The notes below the pieces were generated by a model, which did not search any database, was not told the DNA's origin, and saw only the letters and a list, made by a program, of their open reading frames with translations. The translations under genes and the position numbers were made by a program. This document shows, piece after piece, positions 3,298-8,483 of a DNA stretch of 64,000 nt; position 1 is the first letter of the stretch, and the number at the start of each line of letters is the position of its first letter. The stretch comes from an uncultured Candidatus Saccharibacteria bacterium (lineage in GTDB: Bacteria > Patescibacteriota > Minisyncoccia > Phycocordibacterales > UBA6899), in NCBI GenBank assembly GCA_964386905.1, contig CAYLUP010000001.1:19905-83904 (forward strand), given 5' to 3'.

Positions 3298-3319
3298 AAC
3301 ACCCAACAGGGTGTTTTAT
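3296..3319. terminator. Bidirectional rho-independent terminator between the convergent kinase gene and the PfkB kinase gene.
   Basis: Hairpin aaaACACCCaacaGGGTGTttt with A and T runs on both flanks. Confidence 0.6.
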
Positions 3320-4329
3320 GCTATCTGGTGTGCAACATAATTCTCTGGCTTTTTTGAGAGATATTCTTCAATGTGCTCACGAGACAATAACCCTTCTTGA
3401 GATCCAGGGTATTGAACAACGGACATAGAGTTAATTGGTCCGTAGAGAAGCGCTTCCTGTAGTGGTTTCCCGAGTGCAATCATTGCGGCAATTGTTGATG
3501 AGCACGCATCTCCTGCGCCCGTACGCTCGACTGGGGGTTGTGGGTCTGGGTACGGAGGCACAAACCATGTCGTATCTTGTTCCGCGTCATATGCATAAAG
3601 ACCCTTGGGGCCATCAGTAACTACGGTGATTTTCGGGCCAAGTTGTGACATAAGTTTTGGAAGTTTTGTAGGATCTTGTTCTGTGGAATTGAGGATTTTT
3701 CTTGCCTCATCAGTATTACAGAAGAAAATATTGCATCGCGAATAGAGTTTTTTGAGTCGTTCGTATCCAAGCTTTATCTGGAACGTACCTGGCTGGAAAG
3801 CGAGGTGAACATCTGGATGTGCTTCGAGATAATCCAATATTTCTTCATGATATGCGAGAGAGTTCTCGCCCAATGAAGAAAAGTACAGCCAAGATGGTGT
3901 TTCAATATCCGGAAGAGTGTATGCGTACGTTTCCTGTTTGATTAAAATGGTTCGTTCTGATTTGTACCATAAGATGTAGTGATACAAAGAAGACTTTCCC
4001 GGATTGATGCGTATATATCGTGGGTCAACGCCTTTTTCTTGTAATGCACGAAGGATTTCTTGGCCCTGCTCATCGTCTCCGAGATCTGTAACCAGCGCTG
4101 CTTTAAGCCCAAGCCGTGTCGCTGCGACTGCCGCATTTGCTGAGTTTCCAGCTCCGGGAATCACCTTTGCATATTCATATGGAATTTTTGCTCCATTGAT
4201 AAAGCAGAGGTCTTCTTCTTCAGATCCATCGCTTCCTTCAATTGTGTGGACAGACGCGCGTATGATACGAATAAATGCGTCGGTGACAGTATCCCCGATA
4301 GTAATAAAATCAATTGGTGTATTGTCCAT
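3316..4329 (-). CDS. PfkB-family carbohydrate/nucleoside kinase (ribokinase-like).
   Basis: C-terminal GAGDACSSTIAAMIALG anion-hole motif typical of the PfkB family. N-terminal GAGNSANAAVAATRLG glycine-rich motif. Start moved to the internal ATG (MDNTPIDF...), because the longer ORF would overlap the divergent fba gene. Confidence 0.8.
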   Translation of the reverse strand: MDNTPIDFITIGDTVTDAFIRIIRASVHTIEGSDGSEEEDLCFINGAKIPYEYAKVIPGAGNSANAAVAATRLGLKAALVTDLGDDEQGQEILRALQEKGVDPRYIRINPGKSSLYHYILWYKSERTILIKQETYAYTLPDIETPSWLYFSSLGENSLAYHEEILDYLEAHPDVHLAFQPGTFQIKLGYERLKKLYSRCNIFFCNTDEARKILNSTEQDPTKLPKLMSQLGPKITVVTDGPKGLYAYDAEQDTTWFVPPYPDPQPPVERTGAGDACSSTIAAMIALGKPLQEALLYGPINSMSVVQYPGSQEGLLSREHIEEYLSKKPENYVAHQIA

Positions 4330-4363
4330 CTGTGCATTATACCATGCAAAGGTATGGTAAAAT

Positions 4364-5410
4364 ATGAACATGAATATTGTACAGTTAGAGACAATTGCGC
4401 GAGCGCTCGTTGCAAAAGGGAAAGGAATATTGGCTGCAGATGAATCAAACGTAACGGCAAACAAAAGACTCGCAACCGTGTTCATTCCGCAAGATGAAGA
4501 ACATCGAAGAAAATTTCGTGACATTTTATTGACAACAAAGGAATCTTCAGAAATTGTTTCTGGTGTGATTTTTTATGATGAAACATTTTGGCAATCAACA
4601 ACGTTTGGAGAACCATTTCGGGTGTATTGTGAAAAAAATAATATTCTTCCTGGGATTAAGGTAGATGAAGGTCTCATTAATTTACCTGGTTTTCCTGGAG
4701 AGTACATTACTCGTGGCCTCGACACACTCCCCGAGCGTATTCAAAAGTACGCAGATGCTGGTGCTCGGTTTGCAAAATGGCGCGCTGTCATATCTTTGAG
4801 TGGTCAGACACCAACAGATGCGTGTGTTGCAGCAAATGCATTTATTCTTGCACGGTACGCACGGATTTGTCAGGAGGCAGGTATTGTTCCCATTGTTGAA
4901 CCAGAAGTGCTTTTCGATGGCACGCATACGTCAGATATGTGCGAAGTTGTTACTGCACATGTATATGACACAGTATTCGCCGCATTGCGAACGTTTCGCG
5001 TTCATCTTCCAGGAATGATCTTGAAAACAGGGATGATTCTTCCAGGAAAGGAGTCTGGGTTACCTGTTGATCCCATTGAAGTTGCAGAGCGAACAACGCG
5101 AACACTTCGTACTCATGTTCCTCATGAAGTTGGTGGAGTCGTTTTTCTTTCAGGTGGTCAAACACCAAAACAGGCATTTGAAAATCTTAATGAAATAGCA
5201 AAACGTGGTCCACATCCATGGGGGCTGACATTCTCATATTCTCGTGCACTTCAGGACCCCGTGTTAAAGCATTGGGCCATTCACCAAGGAGATATTGAAG
5301 GAGCAAAGAGTGTTTTTGGTCATCAACTGAAAGCGGCTCAAGCAGCAAGTCTTGGAACGCTGTCTATTGCTGCGCATGGTGATGATTTTGTTTCGCATGG
5401 CCAAGACTAA
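4364..5410 (+). CDS. fba: Fructose-bisphosphate aldolase, class I.
   Basis: KGILAADESN class I aldolase signature with a Schiff-base lysine region, 348 aa. Divergent from the PfkB gene with a 34 bp spacer. Confidence 0.88.
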   Translation: MNMNIVQLETIARALVAKGKGILAADESNVTANKRLATVFIPQDEEHRRKFRDILLTTKESSEIVSGVIFYDETFWQSTTFGEPFRVYCEKNNILPGIKVDEGLINLPGFPGEYITRGLDTLPERIQKYADAGARFAKWRAVISLSGQTPTDACVAANAFILARYARICQEAGIVPIVEPEVLFDGTHTSDMCEVVTAHVYDTVFAALRTFRVHLPGMILKTGMILPGKESGLPVDPIEVAERTTRTLRTHVPHEVGGVVFLSGGQTPKQAFENLNEIAKRGPHPWGLTFSYSRALQDPVLKHWAIHQGDIEGAKSVFGHQLKAAQAASLGTLSIAAHGDDFVSHGQD

Positions 5411-5495
5411 AGATGCCGCGGTGTAAGTGGTGTGCTGGATAAAAGGATATTCCAGTGTATAGTTTCCTTTAGTTTTTGTTATTTCTGGAGGTTCC

Positions 5496-5999
5496 ATGAT
5501 AAAGAAAGTGCTCGAATCTCGCTTTGAGTGTGTCGAGAGTGGGTGTGATAACCTAGTTGACCCACAAACGTCACACGCAATCACGTTGAGTGCAGCGGAA
5601 TACAGTACAACGCTCGCAGCAGCATGTGAAGGGTGTGGTCGGCTATATTCCGTATTTACCGCCGAGCCAGTATTTTCTTCGGATTACATGAAGGTGTTTT
5701 CCGGTGTACATCAGTTAGAACATAAACAGCTCACTGCAGTAGAGAAATATAATCTCATTCATGGTGCGCTCTCGATCATTGAGTCTTCCGAGTCGTTTGA
5801 ACAAGGGGAGATGTATAAGCGGCGTATCGTGAATATGTGCGGTGGTGCTGAGTTGTGGAATGCTCGTCGAATCTCTCGAGCTATGCATGCTCCTGATTGC
5901 GAAGCTGTTTTTTATCGTGCAACACACATGTGCAACTGCGGTGTTGTGCATGCGCGTGACTGGTTTAAGAATCACGACACGCTCGTTCTCGAAGAATGA
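5496..5999 (+). CDS. Cys-rich hypothetical protein, putative zinc-binding. Paralog A of a tandem pair.
   Basis: GGAGG SD 8 nt before the ATG. CxxxC, CxxC and C...CNCG motifs. Clear paralogy with the downstream ORF: shared C.E.GC..L, C..C.R.YS, Y..A..YR and CNCG...W..N blocks. Confidence 0.6.
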   Translation: MIKKVLESRFECVESGCDNLVDPQTSHAITLSAAEYSTTLAAACEGCGRLYSVFTAEPVFSSDYMKVFSGVHQLEHKQLTAVEKYNLIHGALSIIESSESFEQGEMYKRRIVNMCGGAELWNARRISRAMHAPDCEAVFYRATHMCNCGVVHARDWFKNHDTLVLEE

Positions 6000-6191
6000 T
6001 TCTGACCACCTCTGTGAGGTGGTTTTTTATACTTACGAGTTGTTGTATTGTGTGCAATGATGCACACATGCTGTTCCTGCGCGTATTTCACAGCAAAACA
6101 ACAATGAATGCGGGTGTTGTGGTGCAAAAGAATATAATTGACAAAACACAATATTATTGTATTCTGTTCTTGCGTTTCTACAGGAGGTTTT

Positions 6192-6659
6192 ATGAGCGCA
6201 TTTGGTCATTTTCCGTCGGATAAAGTGCTTGATGGCTTCGATTGCCACGAAGAAGGATGTGAGCAACTTCTTTCTCCGACGACCATCGAGGAAGTCACAC
6301 TCTCTCGGACGGATCTTGGTGATCCAATTCCGAGCATCGTGTGTCCGGCATGCCGTCGCGTGTATTCAGGTGCTTCAGGCATGCCTCTGGTGTTCGAACA
6401 CACGAAGAAGATGTTTTATATCGACGGACAACAAGTAGTTCGTCCGCTTTCCTGCAGAGAACGTCTGGAGTACGTCGAGTACTTGCTCGAATGTGCAAAC
6501 AAAACGACTGAGGGGAGTGCAACGTATCGTGCGTTCGAACGCCGTCTTGAGGAAATTCGTGCCCTCCCTCACACAGAAGGGTGTAAGGGGAAGGATAGCA
6601 TGTTTCTCTGCAATTGCGGTCAATATCGTGCCGATCGCTGGGTTTCGAACCAGTCTTGA
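6192..6659 (+). CDS. Cys-rich hypothetical protein, putative zinc-binding. Paralog B of the tandem pair.
   Basis: caGGAGGttttATG SD. Start moved to MSAFGHFP. Same Cys spacing as paralog A (CHEEGC, CPACRRVYS, CNCGQYRADRW). Confidence 0.6.
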   Translation: MSAFGHFPSDKVLDGFDCHEEGCEQLLSPTTIEEVTLSRTDLGDPIPSIVCPACRRVYSGASGMPLVFEHTKKMFYIDGQQVVRPLSCRERLEYVEYLLECANKTTEGSATYRAFERRLEEIRALPHTEGCKGKDSMFLCNCGQYRADRWVSNQS

Positions 6660-6665
6660 TACTTC

Positions 6666-6689
6666 GCTCCATTTCGGTGGAGCTTTTTT
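6666..6689 (+). terminator. Rho-independent terminator after the Cys-rich pair.
   Basis: GCTCCAtttcggTGGAGC followed by TTTTTT. Confidence 0.7.
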
Positions 6690-6828
6690 GTATTTGTACA
6701 CCTATTTTTGCAGTATTCTATGAGGTGAATCCTGCACTGTTCTGCGGAAAAGACCGTTCTTATGCTGATGATGCAACATCCTCGTCTGAACGTTTTATTT
6801 ACAGGCATAAAAACATTCACCATTAACG

Positions 6829-7164
6829 GTGGGTGATAATGGATTCGCCACTCGAAAATTTTGCGAGCTGACTGTTTCTGTTCATAGCGTTCCTGAAAAC
6901 CCACTTACGATCGAGTACAGACTGGGTACGAGTATCTGGAATAACAGAGAGCTTATTCCAGTATCGACGATTGTGAACGAGGCCCATTCTCCACGCGGGG
7001 TGGTAAGGCATGTGTCCATGATCAACCATGAGTGCTGTGACGCGGAAATGGATGTAGCAAGCATTTCGCTGAGCGGCAAAGTCGTCTCTGACGATAAAAT
7101 GATTATGAAATATGCGCGATTGTCTGCGCGTGTATTTGAAATTTTTCAACATGATTTTGAATAG
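6829..7164 (+). CDS. Hypothetical protein, 111 aa. Uncertain: the region could instead be non-coding or an RNA leader.
   Basis: ggtgGGTGAtaATG is a possible SD. The ORF ends exactly at a hairpin plus U-run. No recognisable domain. Confidence 0.3.
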   Translation: MGDNGFATRKFCELTVSVHSVPENPLTIEYRLGTSIWNNRELIPVSTIVNEAHSPRGVVRHVSMINHECCDAEMDVASISLSGKVVSDDKMIMKYARLSARVFEIFQHDFE

Positions 7165-7173
7165 TCCTTCGCT

Positions 7174-7199
7174 GAGCTCCAGGTTCTGGAGCTTTTATG
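7174..7199 (+). terminator. Terminator-like hairpin whose U-run overlaps the first ATG of the proS ORF.
   Basis: GAGCTCCAGgttCTGGAGCTTTTATG. It shares the GCTCCA/TGGAGC arms with the hairpin at 6666. Confidence 0.5.
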
Positions 7200-7241
7200 T
7201 TTTATGATGACGAATGTTTCCTCTTGTGGTATCCTGCTTTT

Positions 7242-8483
7242 ATGCGACAAACGCAACTATTTACAAAAACGCGCAGAGAAGCGCCGAAAGATGAGGTATC
7301 TAAAAATGCACAGCTCTTGCTGCGTGGAGGATATATTTATAAGGAAATGGCAGGAGCATACTGCTATCTTCCTTTGGGGTTGCGAGTCATGAACAATATT
7401 ATCCGTGTGATCCGAGAAGAAATGGAGCATGTGGGGTCTCAAGAACTCACGATGACTCATTTGCAGAGTAAGGAAGTTTGGGAGGCGACAAATCGCTGGG
7501 ATGACGCAGTTGTTGATAATTGGTTTAAAACACAGTTGAAGAATGGAACCGAAGTTGGTCTTGCCTTTACTTGTGAGGAGCCACTTGCGCATCTGATGAA
7601 AGAATACGTCCACTCACACAGAGATCTTCCTTTTTCAGTTTTTCAATTTCAAACAAAGTTTCGCAATGAAGCGCGAGCGAAGAGTGGAATTATGCGTGGA
7701 AGAGAGTTTATCATGAAGGACGCATACAGTTTTGTGAAAAATAAAGATGAGCATGAAGCCATCTACGAACAATATGCTGAGGCATATCAAAGGATTTTTG
7801 CTCGTGTTGGGCTTGGCACAGTGACATATAAAACTTTTGCATCAGGTGGGACATTCTCAAAATATTCTCACGAGTATCAGACGCTCACTGAAGCGGGGGA
7901 GGATATTATTTATATCCACGACGAAAAGCATATTGCAGTAAATAGCGAAGTGCTCAATGATGAGGTCCTCGCTGATTTGGGCATTGCACGGAGCGAGCTT
8001 CGTGAAGCAAAGGCGGTCGAGGTAGGAAATATTTTCACACTCGGAACCAAGTTCTCTAATGCATATGATCTCCAGTACGTTGATGAAAAAGGAGAAAAGC
8101 ATCCCGTCTTTATGGGGTCATACGGTATTGGTCCGGGGCGTGTGATGGGGACGATTGTCGAAGTGCTCTCAGATGAGAAGGGGATCGTTTGGCCAGAAGA
8201 AGTTGCGCCATTCCATTTTCACATTGTGGCACTTGGATACGAAGACGAGTCCGTGAAGTCAGCGGCAGATACGTTGTATGCGACATTGCGTGCAAGGGGT
8301 ATAGACGTTTTATTGGACGATCGTGTTGGGCCAACAGCTGGCGAGAAATTTGCTGACAGTGATTTGTTGGGTATGCCGAAGCGTATTGTTGTCTCCAAGA
8401 AAACGATTACTGCAGGCACTTACGAGTTGAAAGATCGAAAAACCGGTGAAGTTATGAATGTGGCACTGGAATCAATCGGATAA
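7242..8483 (+). CDS. proS: Proline--tRNA ligase (short, archaeal/eukaryal-type class II without an insertion editing domain).
   Basis: MRQTQLFTKTRREAPKD...LLRGGYI N-terminus. Class II motifs (FRNE, GREFIMKDAYSF). Anticodon-binding C-terminus. Start could alternatively be 7197. Confidence 0.88.
   Translation: MRQTQLFTKTRREAPKDEVSKNAQLLLRGGYIYKEMAGAYCYLPLGLRVMNNIIRVIREEMEHVGSQELTMTHLQSKEVWEATNRWDDAVVDNWFKTQLKNGTEVGLAFTCEEPLAHLMKEYVHSHRDLPFSVFQFQTKFRNEARAKSGIMRGREFIMKDAYSFVKNKDEHEAIYEQYAEAYQRIFARVGLGTVTYKTFASGGTFSKYSHEYQTLTEAGEDIIYIHDEKHIAVNSEVLNDEVLADLGIARSELREAKAVEVGNIFTLGTKFSNAYDLQYVDEKGEKHPVFMGSYGIGPGRVMGTIVEVLSDEKGIVWPEEVAPFHFHIVALGYEDESVKSAADTLYATLRARGIDVLLDDRVGPTAGEKFADSDLLGMPKRIVVSKKTITAGTYELKDRKTGEVMNVALESIG

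What the first reader, a model, noticed from the sequence alone, without database searches (positions are those of the whole stretch)
5496..6659. Tandem pair of paralogous Cys-rich proteins of unknown family between fba and proS
Two adjacent genes of 167 aa and 155 aa each have a GGAGG SD. Their products share an ordered set of blocks: C-x-E-x-GC-x2-L, C-x2-C-x-R-x-YS, Y-x2-A-x2-YR, C-x9-10-CNCG and W-x2-N. That gives 8 conserved Cys in four pairs, compatible with two Zn sites. They are not recognisably similar to a common family from sequence alone. The pair is bracketed by the fba gene upstream and a strong terminator downstream. Duplicated small metal-binding proteins of this kind can be toxin/antitoxin-like, redox or regulatory modules.
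Basis: seen in the sequence. Interest (0 to 1): 0.55.

Follow-up and report, generated by a model that had tools for sequence, protein, structure and literature searches.

The report
Paired two-metal-site proteins, unknown family
Two neighbouring genes really do encode distantly related small cysteine-rich proteins; they belong to a rare, unnamed family with two predicted metal sites and a confidently predicted shape that matches no solved structure, but its function is still only a guess.

Summary
Gene A (5496-5999, 167 aa) and gene B (6192-6659, 155 aa) are true paralogues: BLASTP E=1e-11, 25% identity, Smith-Waterman z about 20 against shuffles. The conserved ligand set is 7 Cys plus 1 His, not 8 Cys. 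It forms a C-x4-C...C-x2-C ribbon and an H-x3-C-x8-10-C-x-C site. Each gene has its own Shine-Dalgarno site and terminator, so they are not one operon.

An exhaustive HMM search found only 30 cluster representatives among 1.84 billion proteins, all about 135-225 aa. The eight ligands are invariant where covered. Pfam, NCBIfam, PHROGs, PADLOC and PDB sequence searches gave nothing meaningful. AlphaFold models are confident (pLDDT 92 and 90) but match nothing in PDB or BFVD.

The pair is kept in a close relative, and another tandem pair occurs elsewhere. Most loci carry one copy. One relative has only an A-like copy beside proS, and another has a decayed second copy. Both genes evolve about 7 times faster than the adjacent ProRS.

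Best reading: a fast-evolving, non-enzymatic, metal-stabilised binding or regulatory protein. A toxin-antitoxin reading is not supported. Redox or iron binding remains open.

The parts
5436..5463 (+). Weak promoter-like site (TGGATA-16-TATAGT) in front of gene A
   Evidence: Consensus scan, 9 of 12 matches. This is a pattern match only.
5487..5491 (+). Shine-Dalgarno GGAGG of gene A
   Evidence: Read directly in the sequence, 4 nt before the ATG at 5496.
5496..5999 (+). Gene A, 167 aa. Residues about 10-78 form the N-terminal beta / zinc-ribbon domain (C12, C17, C44, C47). Residues about 79-160 form the C-terminal helical domain with H131, C135, C146 and C148. It carries an A-type-specific insertion at residues about 113-125.
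   Evidence: ORF. Paralogy to B. Family alignment. AF2 model with pLDDT 92.3 and pTM 0.85. Orthologue fragment in L001 and A-like P0005 in L006.
6004..6031 (+). Intrinsic terminator after gene A (9-bp stem, 5 GC pairs, then a T-run)
   Evidence: Terminator scan. The hairpin and T-run are conserved in the L001 relative.
6138..6165 (+). Promoter-like site for gene B (TTGACA-16-TATTCT, 10 of 12)
   Evidence: Scan. The TTGACA is conserved in L001.
6182..6187 (+). Shine-Dalgarno AGGAGG of gene B
   Evidence: Read directly in the sequence, 4 nt before the ATG at 6192.
6192..6659 (+). Gene B, 155 aa. It has the same two-domain plan as A, with ligands C18, C23, C51, C54 and H127, C131, C140, C142.
   Evidence: ORF (the listed TTG start at 6138 is upstream of the SD-ATG). 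Orthologues P0003 and P0004 start at the same MSAFGH. AF2 model with pLDDT 89.7 and pTM 0.81.
6666..6689 (+). Intrinsic terminator after gene B
   Evidence: Terminator scan: 7-bp stem followed by TTTTTT.

Best explanation
A and B are old paralogues of a rare, lineage-restricted family of small cytoplasmic proteins. Each is a single compact unit of two metal-pinned parts. The N-terminal part is a beta-rich domain built round a four-cysteine zinc ribbon (C-x-E-x-G-C ... C-P-x-C-G-R). The C-terminal part is a small helical bundle clamped by a His-Cys3 site (G-H-A-x-D-C ... C-x-C-G).

Shown here: the metal ligands and a handful of core residues are the only conserved positions. The rest of the sequence changes fast.

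Inferred: the metals (most probably Zn) are structural. The protein has no catalytic centre and works by binding a partner, more likely a protein than DNA, as a small regulatory or adaptor factor. A and B are separately transcribed and have diverged to different partner specificities, or they bind each other. The family is a resident chromosomal gene that sits next to proS in the window's clade, but it is not co-transcribed with proS.
For: Paralogy and family:
- BLASTP between A and B gives E=1e-11.
- An exhaustive profile search found 30 representatives among 1.84e9 proteins; the intact ones are about 150-225 aa with full-length matches, and a few are shorter or truncated.
- Across 34 family sequences the invariant columns are exactly C12, C17, C44, C47, H131, C135, C146 and C148. 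R49 and G149 are nearly invariant. No conserved Ser/Asp/His-type catalytic set exists.

Fold:
- AF2 gives pLDDT 92.3 / pTM 0.85 for A and 89.7 / 0.81 for B, i.e. a single globular unit. Strands lie in the N half and helices in the C half.

Not an enzyme or known family:
- Pfam, NCBIfam, PHROGs and PADLOC gave nothing meaningful.

Fast evolution under constraint (window versus L001):
- dN is 0.23 for both A and B, against 0.031 for the adjacent ProRS, whose dS is 1.06. This implies dN/dS of about 0.2 or lower.

Charge and location:
- The proteins are acidic to neutral (A pI 5.7, B pI 5.4, family median 6.2). No hydrophobic N-terminal stretch is visible in the sequences, but no signal-peptide or transmembrane predictor was run.

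Transcription and context:
- Each gene has its own SD and terminator, and B also has a good promoter-like site (A only a weak one). The A terminator and the B -35 element are conserved in L001.
- Chromosomal context is housekeeping genes in every locus. No hits were found in viral contigs.
Against: - No partner has been identified.
- No gene co-occurs with the family across all loci. proS appears in four lineages of one clade. murA is nearby in two distant lineages. A DUF4406-like gene lies directly upstream in one subclade.
- The metal identity is not known. CPxCG knuckles and 3Cys-1His sites also bind Fe or Fe-S.
- 'Binding protein' is largely an argument from the absence of catalytic conservation.
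- Fold searches covered only PDB and BFVD. The AlphaFold database library was unavailable.
- Domain-wise structure searches could not be run.
Confidence: 0.4

Rival explanations
1. The protein is redox-active or a redox or metal sensor. The Cys4 site would bind Fe as in rubredoxin, and/or the 3Cys-1His site would hold a labile [2Fe-2S] cluster or a Zn-thiolate switch. The protein would transfer electrons or change conformation on oxidation or metal loss.
For: - The second knuckle is the classical rubredoxin-type C-P-x-C-G. The N-domain profile weakly touches rubredoxins (E about 0.7-1.2).
- From my own knowledge, 3Cys-1His ligation is typical of labile Fe-S sites (mitoNEET/CISD, IscR) and of Zn redox switches (ZAS anti-sigma factors, Hsp33). 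The spacing H-x3-C-x8-10-C-x-C is the mirror image of the CISD motif C-x-C-x8-C-x3-H.
- A thioredoxin-reductase-like gene and a glutaredoxin gene lie on the L004 contig.
Against: - No Pfam or PDB match to rubredoxin, CDGSH, ZAS or Hsp33 at meaningful scores.
- The first knuckle is C-x4-C, not C-x2-C-G.
- Electron carriers usually have conserved surfaces and evolve slowly, whereas these proteins evolve fast.
- No redox partner gene recurs next to the family.
Confidence: 0.2
2. The protein is a nucleic-acid-binding zinc-ribbon factor, for example a small transcription or translation factor that contacts DNA, RNA, RNA polymerase or the ribosome through the ribbon.
For: - From my own knowledge, zinc ribbons are common in transcription and translation proteins such as TFIIB, TFIIS, primases and ribosomal proteins.
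- Neighbours are often translation or cell-growth genes: proS, lysS, greA, an ABC-F gene, RRF and gyrA.
- A few family members are basic, with pI 8-8.9.
Against: - A, B and most family members are acidic or neutral, with a median net charge of -2.5.
- No conserved basic patch exists; R49 is the only near-invariant basic residue.
- The N-domain profile hits only Cys-knuckle look-alikes in C2H2 fingers, and the family lacks the His pair.
Confidence: 0.15
3. The protein is an accessory factor of the neighbouring minimal ProRS. It would be either a detached equivalent of the zinc-binding C-terminal domain of archaeal-type ProRS or a trans-acting partner that compensates for the missing INS editing domain.
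For: - The family sits beside proS in the window, L001, L006, L005 and L091, whose ProRS proteins are 58-96% identical to the window's.
- The window ProRS lacks the INS editing domain.
- The ribbon spacing C-x4-C-x26-C-x2-C resembles what I recall for the Thermus ProRS zinc domain. This is from memory and was not verified.
Against: - The ProRS is of the bacterial type (proS_fam_II / PRK12325-like), which does not use that C-terminal domain.
- ProRS-C_1 did not match at E<=10 for A or B or at E<=1 for the other family members, and no ProRS chain matched in PDB profile searches.
- Orientation relative to proS flips between same-strand and convergent, and terminators separate the genes.
- More distant members lie next to murA/mreB, gyrA, secY or ABC genes instead.
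- Known trans-editing factors (YbaK/ProXp) have a different alpha/beta fold (own knowledge).
Confidence: 0.05
4. The two genes form a toxin-antitoxin-like or anti-phage conflict module.
For: The genes are small, fast-evolving and tandemly duplicated, and one copy is sometimes a pseudogene.
Against: - The two products are homologues of each other, not a toxin plus an antidote.
- Their transcription units are separate.
- A single copy is the rule elsewhere.
- There are no PADLOC, PHROG or Pfam TA hits.
- No copy was found in viral contigs.
- The position among housekeeping genes is stable, with no mobile-element genes nearby.
Confidence: 0.03

Closest known systems
Zinc-ribbon structural class (rubredoxin-like knuckles, e.g. 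the ribbon at the C-terminus of Mut7-C/PF01927 proteins)
   Same: - Two Cys pairs, each on a knuckle and separated by about 26 residues of beta structure.
- The second knuckle is C-P-x-C-G followed by R-L-Y/H-W. I recall a similar 'C-x2-C-G-x-x-Y-W' in Mut7-C proteins.
- Six of 31 members give weak Mut7-C hits, best E=0.009.
   Different: - The hits are far below Pfam's threshold, and I infer (the matched coordinates were not shown) that they cover only the knuckle.
- There is no PIN/RNase domain.
- The first knuckle is C-x-E-x-G-C.
- The ribbon is fused to a C-terminal HC3 helical domain that matches nothing.
ZAS (zinc-containing anti-sigma) domain, e.g. RsrA, ChrR, RslA
   Same: It is a small, acidic, helical, cytoplasmic domain whose zinc site contains an H-x3-C element. 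It would work by binding a partner protein, possibly with redox control.
   Different: - The ZAS signature is H-x3-C-x2-C plus one upstream ligand. Here the remaining ligands are C-x-C, placed 8-10 residues downstream.
- The C-domain profile hit no PDB chain at E<=10; I expect RsrA, ChrR and RslA to be among the PDB entries (own knowledge, not checked).
- No sigma-factor gene was recognised among the neighbours scanned in any locus.
CDGSH / mitoNEET 3Cys-1His [2Fe-2S] sites
   Same: One His and three Cys with very similar spacings: 3, then 8-10, then 1.
   Different: - The order is reversed (H...C...C-x-C instead of C-x-C...C...H).
- The predicted environment is helical rather than a beta-cap.
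- There is no Pfam or PDB sequence match.
- The metal is unknown.
Eukaryote-type C2H2 zinc fingers (YY1, ZNF410, CTCF, designed Aart)
   Same: Local strings F-x-C-x-E-x-G-C-x-K/G and Y-x-C-P-x-C-G-K/R look like the Cys halves of C2H2 fingers. This gives PDB profile E-values of 6e-5 to 0.1, summed over repeats.
   Different: - There is no H-x3-5-H half.
- The two Cys pairs are partners of one ribbon rather than two fingers.
- Each single-domain match has E>=0.87.

Membership tests
Zinc ribbon (structural class) | Two knuckles, each giving two Cys ligands, carried on beta-hairpins and separated by a beta-rich spacer | tested here: met
   C12-x4-C17 and C44-x2-C47 are invariant wherever the sequence is complete. 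AF2 predicts strands around and between the knuckles with pLDDT above 90. The structure is predicted, and the metal has not been observed.
Mut7-C (PF01927) | Score above Pfam's gathering threshold, with a PIN-like RNase domain | tested here: not met
   A and B give no hit at E<=10. Six of 31 members give E>=0.009; I infer, without seeing the matched coordinates, that only the ribbon knuckle is hit. A protein of about 150 aa has no room for a nuclease domain.
Rubredoxin | About 50-aa domain with C-x2-C-G ... C-P-x-C-G binding Fe | tested here: not met
   Only the second knuckle fits. PDB rubredoxins match at E 0.7-1.2 over 16-18 residues. There is no Pfam hit. Fe binding cannot be tested here.
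C2H2 zinc finger | C-x2-4-C-x12-H-x3-5-H unit | tested here: not met
   No conserved His pair follows either Cys pair. PDB matches are to the Cys halves only.
ZAS anti-sigma factor | H-x3-C-x2-C motif | tested here: not met
   The family has H-x3-C followed by C-x-C after 8-10 residues. The C-domain profile finds no PDB chain at E<=10.
ZAS anti-sigma factor | Gene adjacent to, and co-transcribed with, its sigma-factor gene | tested here: not met
   No sigma-70 family domain was found among the neighbours scanned in the window, L004, L005, L009, L010, L091 or L095.
CDGSH iron-sulfur domain | C-x-C-x2-(S/T)-x3-P-x-C-D-G-(S/A/T)-H signature | tested here: not met
   The ligand order is reversed and the signature residues are absent. 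There is no Pfam hit.
ProRS C-terminal zinc-binding domain (ProRS-C_1, PF09180) | Sequence match to the domain, and association with an archaeal/eukaryote-type ProRS | tested here: not met
   No Pfam hit at E<=10 for A or B or at E<=1 for the other members. No ProRS chain appears among PDB profile hits. The neighbouring ProRS is bacterial type II without INS.
Type II toxin-antitoxin pair | Two different proteins (toxin and antidote) in one operon, usually with overlapping or closely spaced genes | tested here: not met
   A and B are homologues. They are 192 bp apart, with a terminator and a promoter-like site between them. Relatives mostly have one copy. There are no PADLOC or Pfam TA hits.

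The most novel reading that the evidence does not exclude
The family is the founding example of a new two-metal fold: a zinc ribbon packed on an HC3-clamped helical bundle. It would act as a lineage-specific thiol- or metal-dependent switch in a poorly sampled group of uncultivated bacteria. A and B would form a hetero-pair that couples redox or metal status to growth functions encoded around it, such as translation and cell-wall or cell-shape genes.
Probability: 0.12. Interest if true: 0.6.

Novelty: new variant of a known kind. Interest (0 to 1): 0.38.

Why it matters
If the predicted fold and the two metal sites are real, this is an undescribed small metalloprotein family. It has no Pfam entry and no structural neighbour in PDB or BFVD. 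It is confined to a thinly sampled bacterial lineage and is retained under purifying selection while evolving quickly. Such proteins are candidates for lineage-specific regulators. The family offers a compact target of about 150 aa with a confident model for structural and metal-binding work. In practical terms, the result also removes the more exciting readings, namely a toxin-antitoxin module or an obligatory two-gene module. The pair is a duplicated stand-alone gene.

Tried and rejected
- Curated libraries. Pfam, NCBIfam, PHROGs and PADLOC were scanned on A, B and all 31 aligned members. Nothing reached a meaningful score.
- PDB by sequence. I used whole-protein, N-domain and C-domain profiles. 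The N-domain gave only Cys-knuckle look-alikes and the C-domain gave nothing.
- Word-index protein searches. These found almost only self hits and two close B orthologues.
- Genome-contig scan with the family alignment. It found nothing.
- Genome-contig scan with ProRS. It returned 80 loci that are only 31-44% identical, none with a family member, so the source lineage could not be named.
- Viral contigs. None carried a relative, so a phage origin is rejected.
- Split ProRS C-terminal domain or ProRS accessory. Rejected as the leading idea because the ProRS is bacterial type and the genes are not co-transcribed.
- Conserved operator in the A-B spacer. The palindrome at 6049-6068 is absent in L001, and only the terminator and the -35 element are conserved.
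- RNA elements. Rfam at E<=1 found nothing in 5380-7300.
- Phylogeny. A neighbour-joining tree, built to decide whether the L092 pair shares the A/B duplication, was star-like and unresolved.
- One paper search gave nothing relevant.

Full report
**1. What is in the sequence**

The region holds two same-strand ORFs. A is at 5496-5999 (167 aa) and B is at 6192-6659 (155 aa from the ATG at 6192). GGAGG (5487-5491) and AGGAGG (6182-6187) sit 4 nt before the respective ATGs.

Upstream lies a class-I fructose-bisphosphate aldolase gene (4364-5410) and, divergently, a PfkB-family kinase gene. Downstream lie proS (7197-8483), mreB, mreC and a PBP2-type transpeptidase gene. Further on are greA, lysS, mraZ, rsmH, ftsI and murF.

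The A terminator and the TTGACA are conserved in a relative. The two genes are therefore most simply two transcription units, not a bicistronic module.

**2. Are the two products related?**

Yes. BLASTP gives E=1e-11 and 25% identity over 160 columns. The Smith-Waterman score of 119 compares with 28.7 +/- 4.6 for 500 shuffles of B, z=19.7.

Y-x2-A-x2-YR is in neither.

The shared ligand set is seven Cys and one His, not eight Cys:
- C12/C17/C44/C47 in A, equivalent to C18/C23/C51/C54 in B.
- H131/C135/C146/C148 in A, equivalent to H127/C131/C140/C142 in B.

The other Cys residues (A C115; B C88 and C101) are not shared.

**3. The family**

Word-index searches found only the proteins themselves and two B orthologues at 71-73% identity. 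An exhaustive HMMER search used a profile of A, B and those two orthologues against 1.84 billion cluster representatives. It found 30 proteins at E<=1e-3 and 11 at E<=1e-10. Nearly all are 134-179 aa (extremes 71 and 224 aa), and the intact ones match over essentially their full length. This is a real but rare family.

In a 34-sequence alignment the eight ligand positions are the only invariant columns. R49 and G149 are nearly invariant. F10, E14, G16, K66, F68, L79, E83, D134, A153 and W156 are majority residues. The family consensus is:

F-P-C-x-E-x-G-C-x-G ... C-P-x-C-G-R-L-Y/H-W ... P-L-x-S-x-E-K ... G-H-A-x-D-C ... C-x-C-G ... A-x-x-W

No conserved constellation suggests catalysis.

**4. 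Comparison with what is catalogued**

- Pfam, NCBIfam, PHROGs and PADLOC give nothing meaningful for A, B or any of 31 members. The commonest weak hit is Mut7-C, in 6 members with best E=0.009. I infer that it reflects the C-x2-C-G-R-L-Y-W knuckle; the matched coordinates were not shown.
- PDB profile searches with the 31-member whole-protein alignment and with the N-domain hit only the Cys halves of C2H2 fingers and, at E about 1, rubredoxin knuckles. The profile of A, B and B's two close homologues and the C-domain profile hit nothing at E<=10.
- AlphaFold2 with the 31-sequence alignment gives confident single-unit models. A has pLDDT 92.3 and pTM 0.85; B has pLDDT 89.7 and pTM 0.81. Residues to about 78 form a beta-rich N half. 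Two longer helices and several short ones form the C half.
- Foldseek against PDB has a best E of 0.32 with TM about 0.2. Foldseek against BFVD has a best E of 0.45.
- AFDB50 could not be searched.

Within the libraries available, the overall fold has no neighbour. Only the N-terminal ribbon belongs to a known structural class.

**5. Is the pair conserved?**

*Close relative.* L001 is a 2.2-kb metagenome contig whose ProRS fragment is 91-96% identical to the window's. It carries the C-terminal part of an A orthologue (67% identity), then a B orthologue (70%), then an inserted pilin-like N_methyl gene, then proS. The pair is therefore kept there.

*Rate of change.* Between the window and L001, dN is 0.23 for both A and B, against 0.031 for ProRS. 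ProRS has dS of 1.06, while dS for A and B is saturated. This implies purifying selection (dN/dS about 0.2 or less) but roughly seven-fold faster protein change than the neighbour.

*Other loci.*
- L006 has an A-like gene (39% identity) with its own terminator, followed directly by proS. No B lies between them.
- L005 (ProRS 66% identical) has one copy convergent with proS.
- L091 (ProRS 58% identical) has one intact copy. About 2.6 kb away and convergent with proS lies a decayed copy with an in-frame TGA and no C-terminal domain.
- L092/L093 carry a second, independent-looking tandem pair (P0021 and P0025, 22% identical, 44 bp apart), followed by an ABC-F gene.
- L004, L007, L008, L009, L010, L094 and L095 have a single copy within the DNA available.

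*Age of the duplication.* A neighbour-joining tree is star-like. A and B are not sisters, so the duplication is old, but orthology with the L092 pair is unresolved.

*Conclusion.* One copy is the norm, duplication recurs or persists in some lineages, and a copy can be lost or decay.

**6. Genomic context**

All loci are chromosomal housekeeping neighbourhoods. No copy was found in viral contigs, and no mobile-element genes were recognised among the neighbours that were scanned.

Recurrent neighbours are:
- proS, in five loci of one clade, in either orientation.
- murA, directly downstream in L010 followed by mreB, and two genes away and convergent in L004. The two MurA proteins are only 26% identical, so these lineages are distant.
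- A DUF4406-like gene immediately upstream in L004 and L094, overlapping the family gene in L004.

None of these is universal. Terminators separate the genes in the window and in L006. I read the proS adjacency as inherited synteny rather than a functional operon.

The window ProRS is the bacterial type lacking the INS editing domain. I considered a detached zinc domain or a trans-acting helper. The bacterial type does not use the archaeal C-terminal zinc domain, and no sequence or fold similarity was found.

**7. How it most likely works**

Shown: the family has two invariant four-ligand sets (C4 and HC3). Its models are confident and compact, no other conserved polar cluster exists, and its charge is acidic to neutral (A pI 5.7, B pI 5.4, median 6.2). 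No hydrophobic N-terminal stretch is visible in the sequences, though no signal-peptide or membrane predictor was run. Evolution is fast but constrained, and the genes are separate transcription units.

Inferred: the metals are structural (Zn being the default for such sites). The protein is not an enzyme and acts by binding, more likely to a protein than to nucleic acid, as a small lineage-specific regulator or adaptor. A and B have diverged in specificity or bind each other. I give this 0.4.

Rivals:
- A redox-active or metal-sensing protein, i.e. a rubredoxin-like Fe site and/or a 3Cys-1His Fe-S or Zn-thiolate switch: 0.2.
- A nucleic-acid, RNA polymerase or ribosome-binding ribbon factor: 0.15.
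- A ProRS accessory: 0.05.
- A toxin-antitoxin or defence module: 0.03.

**8. Novelty and score**

The family is unnamed and absent from the curated libraries. In the libraries I could search, it has no structural neighbour. The ribbon half belongs to a well-known class, so I rate it a new variant of a known kind.

Unannotated small Cys-rich proteins are common in uncultivated small-genome bacteria, and no function could be pinned down. A specialist would be mildly interested rather than surprised. Interest is 0.38.

Noticed in passing
window 6690-7196: About 500 bp lie between the B terminator and proS with no recognisable gene. Overlapping ORFs 6823-7152 (-) and 6829-7164 (+) have no Pfam match. 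In the close relative L001 a pilin-like N_methyl gene (L001 972-1598) lies between B and proS, although the window's stretch shows no similarity to it. Two terminator-like hairpins (7108-7137 and 7174-7194) sit just before proS. Rfam finds no T-box or other RNA here.
   Followed up: partly
window 7197-8483: The ProRS is the bacterial type without the INS editing domain (best models proS_fam_II and PRK12325-like). Homologues and profiles align only from residue 16, so the true start is probably the ATG at 7242, not 7197. No trans-editing factor was looked for.
   Followed up: partly
window 6049-6068: A perfect 8-bp inverted repeat with a 4-nt spacer (TGTGTGCA-ATGA-TGCACACA) lies in the A-B spacer, about 70 nt upstream of the B promoter-like site. 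It falls in a stretch that is deleted in L001, so it is not a conserved operator.
   Followed up: yes
L091 3305-3676: This is a decayed family copy beside proS. The N-terminal ribbon is intact but is interrupted by an in-frame TGA at 3428-3430, and the C-terminal HC3 domain is missing. I did not test whether the TGA is read through or recoded.
   Followed up: partly
L004 9430-10011 and L094 123-641: A conserved gene of about 170-190 aa (motif VCGPITTGGLGS; weak DUF4406 hit, E=0.22) lies immediately upstream of the family gene in this subclade, overlapping it by 11 nt in L004. It is a possible operon partner there. The window has no homologue.
   Followed up: partly
L006 156-323 (-): A 55-aa ORF with K-C-S-C-G ... 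K-C-K-G-C-G, with its own terminator, gives a weak Mu Com-like zinc-ribbon hit (E=0.02). It lies upstream of the A-like gene and is unrelated to the family.
   Followed up: partly
L092 255-1261 (same in L093): A second tandem pair of family members (156 aa and 163 aa, 22% identical, 44 bp apart) is followed by an ABC-F ATPase gene. Whether it shares the A/B duplication is unresolved.
   Followed up: partly
window 3316-4524 (-) versus 4364-5410 (+): The longest PfkB-kinase ORF overlaps the start of fba by 160 bp. I only scanned the part of this ORF from 4200 downstream (3316-4200), where the PfkB domain matches well. The real start is probably an internal codon near 4200, which would leave a divergent promoter region.
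   Followed up: no
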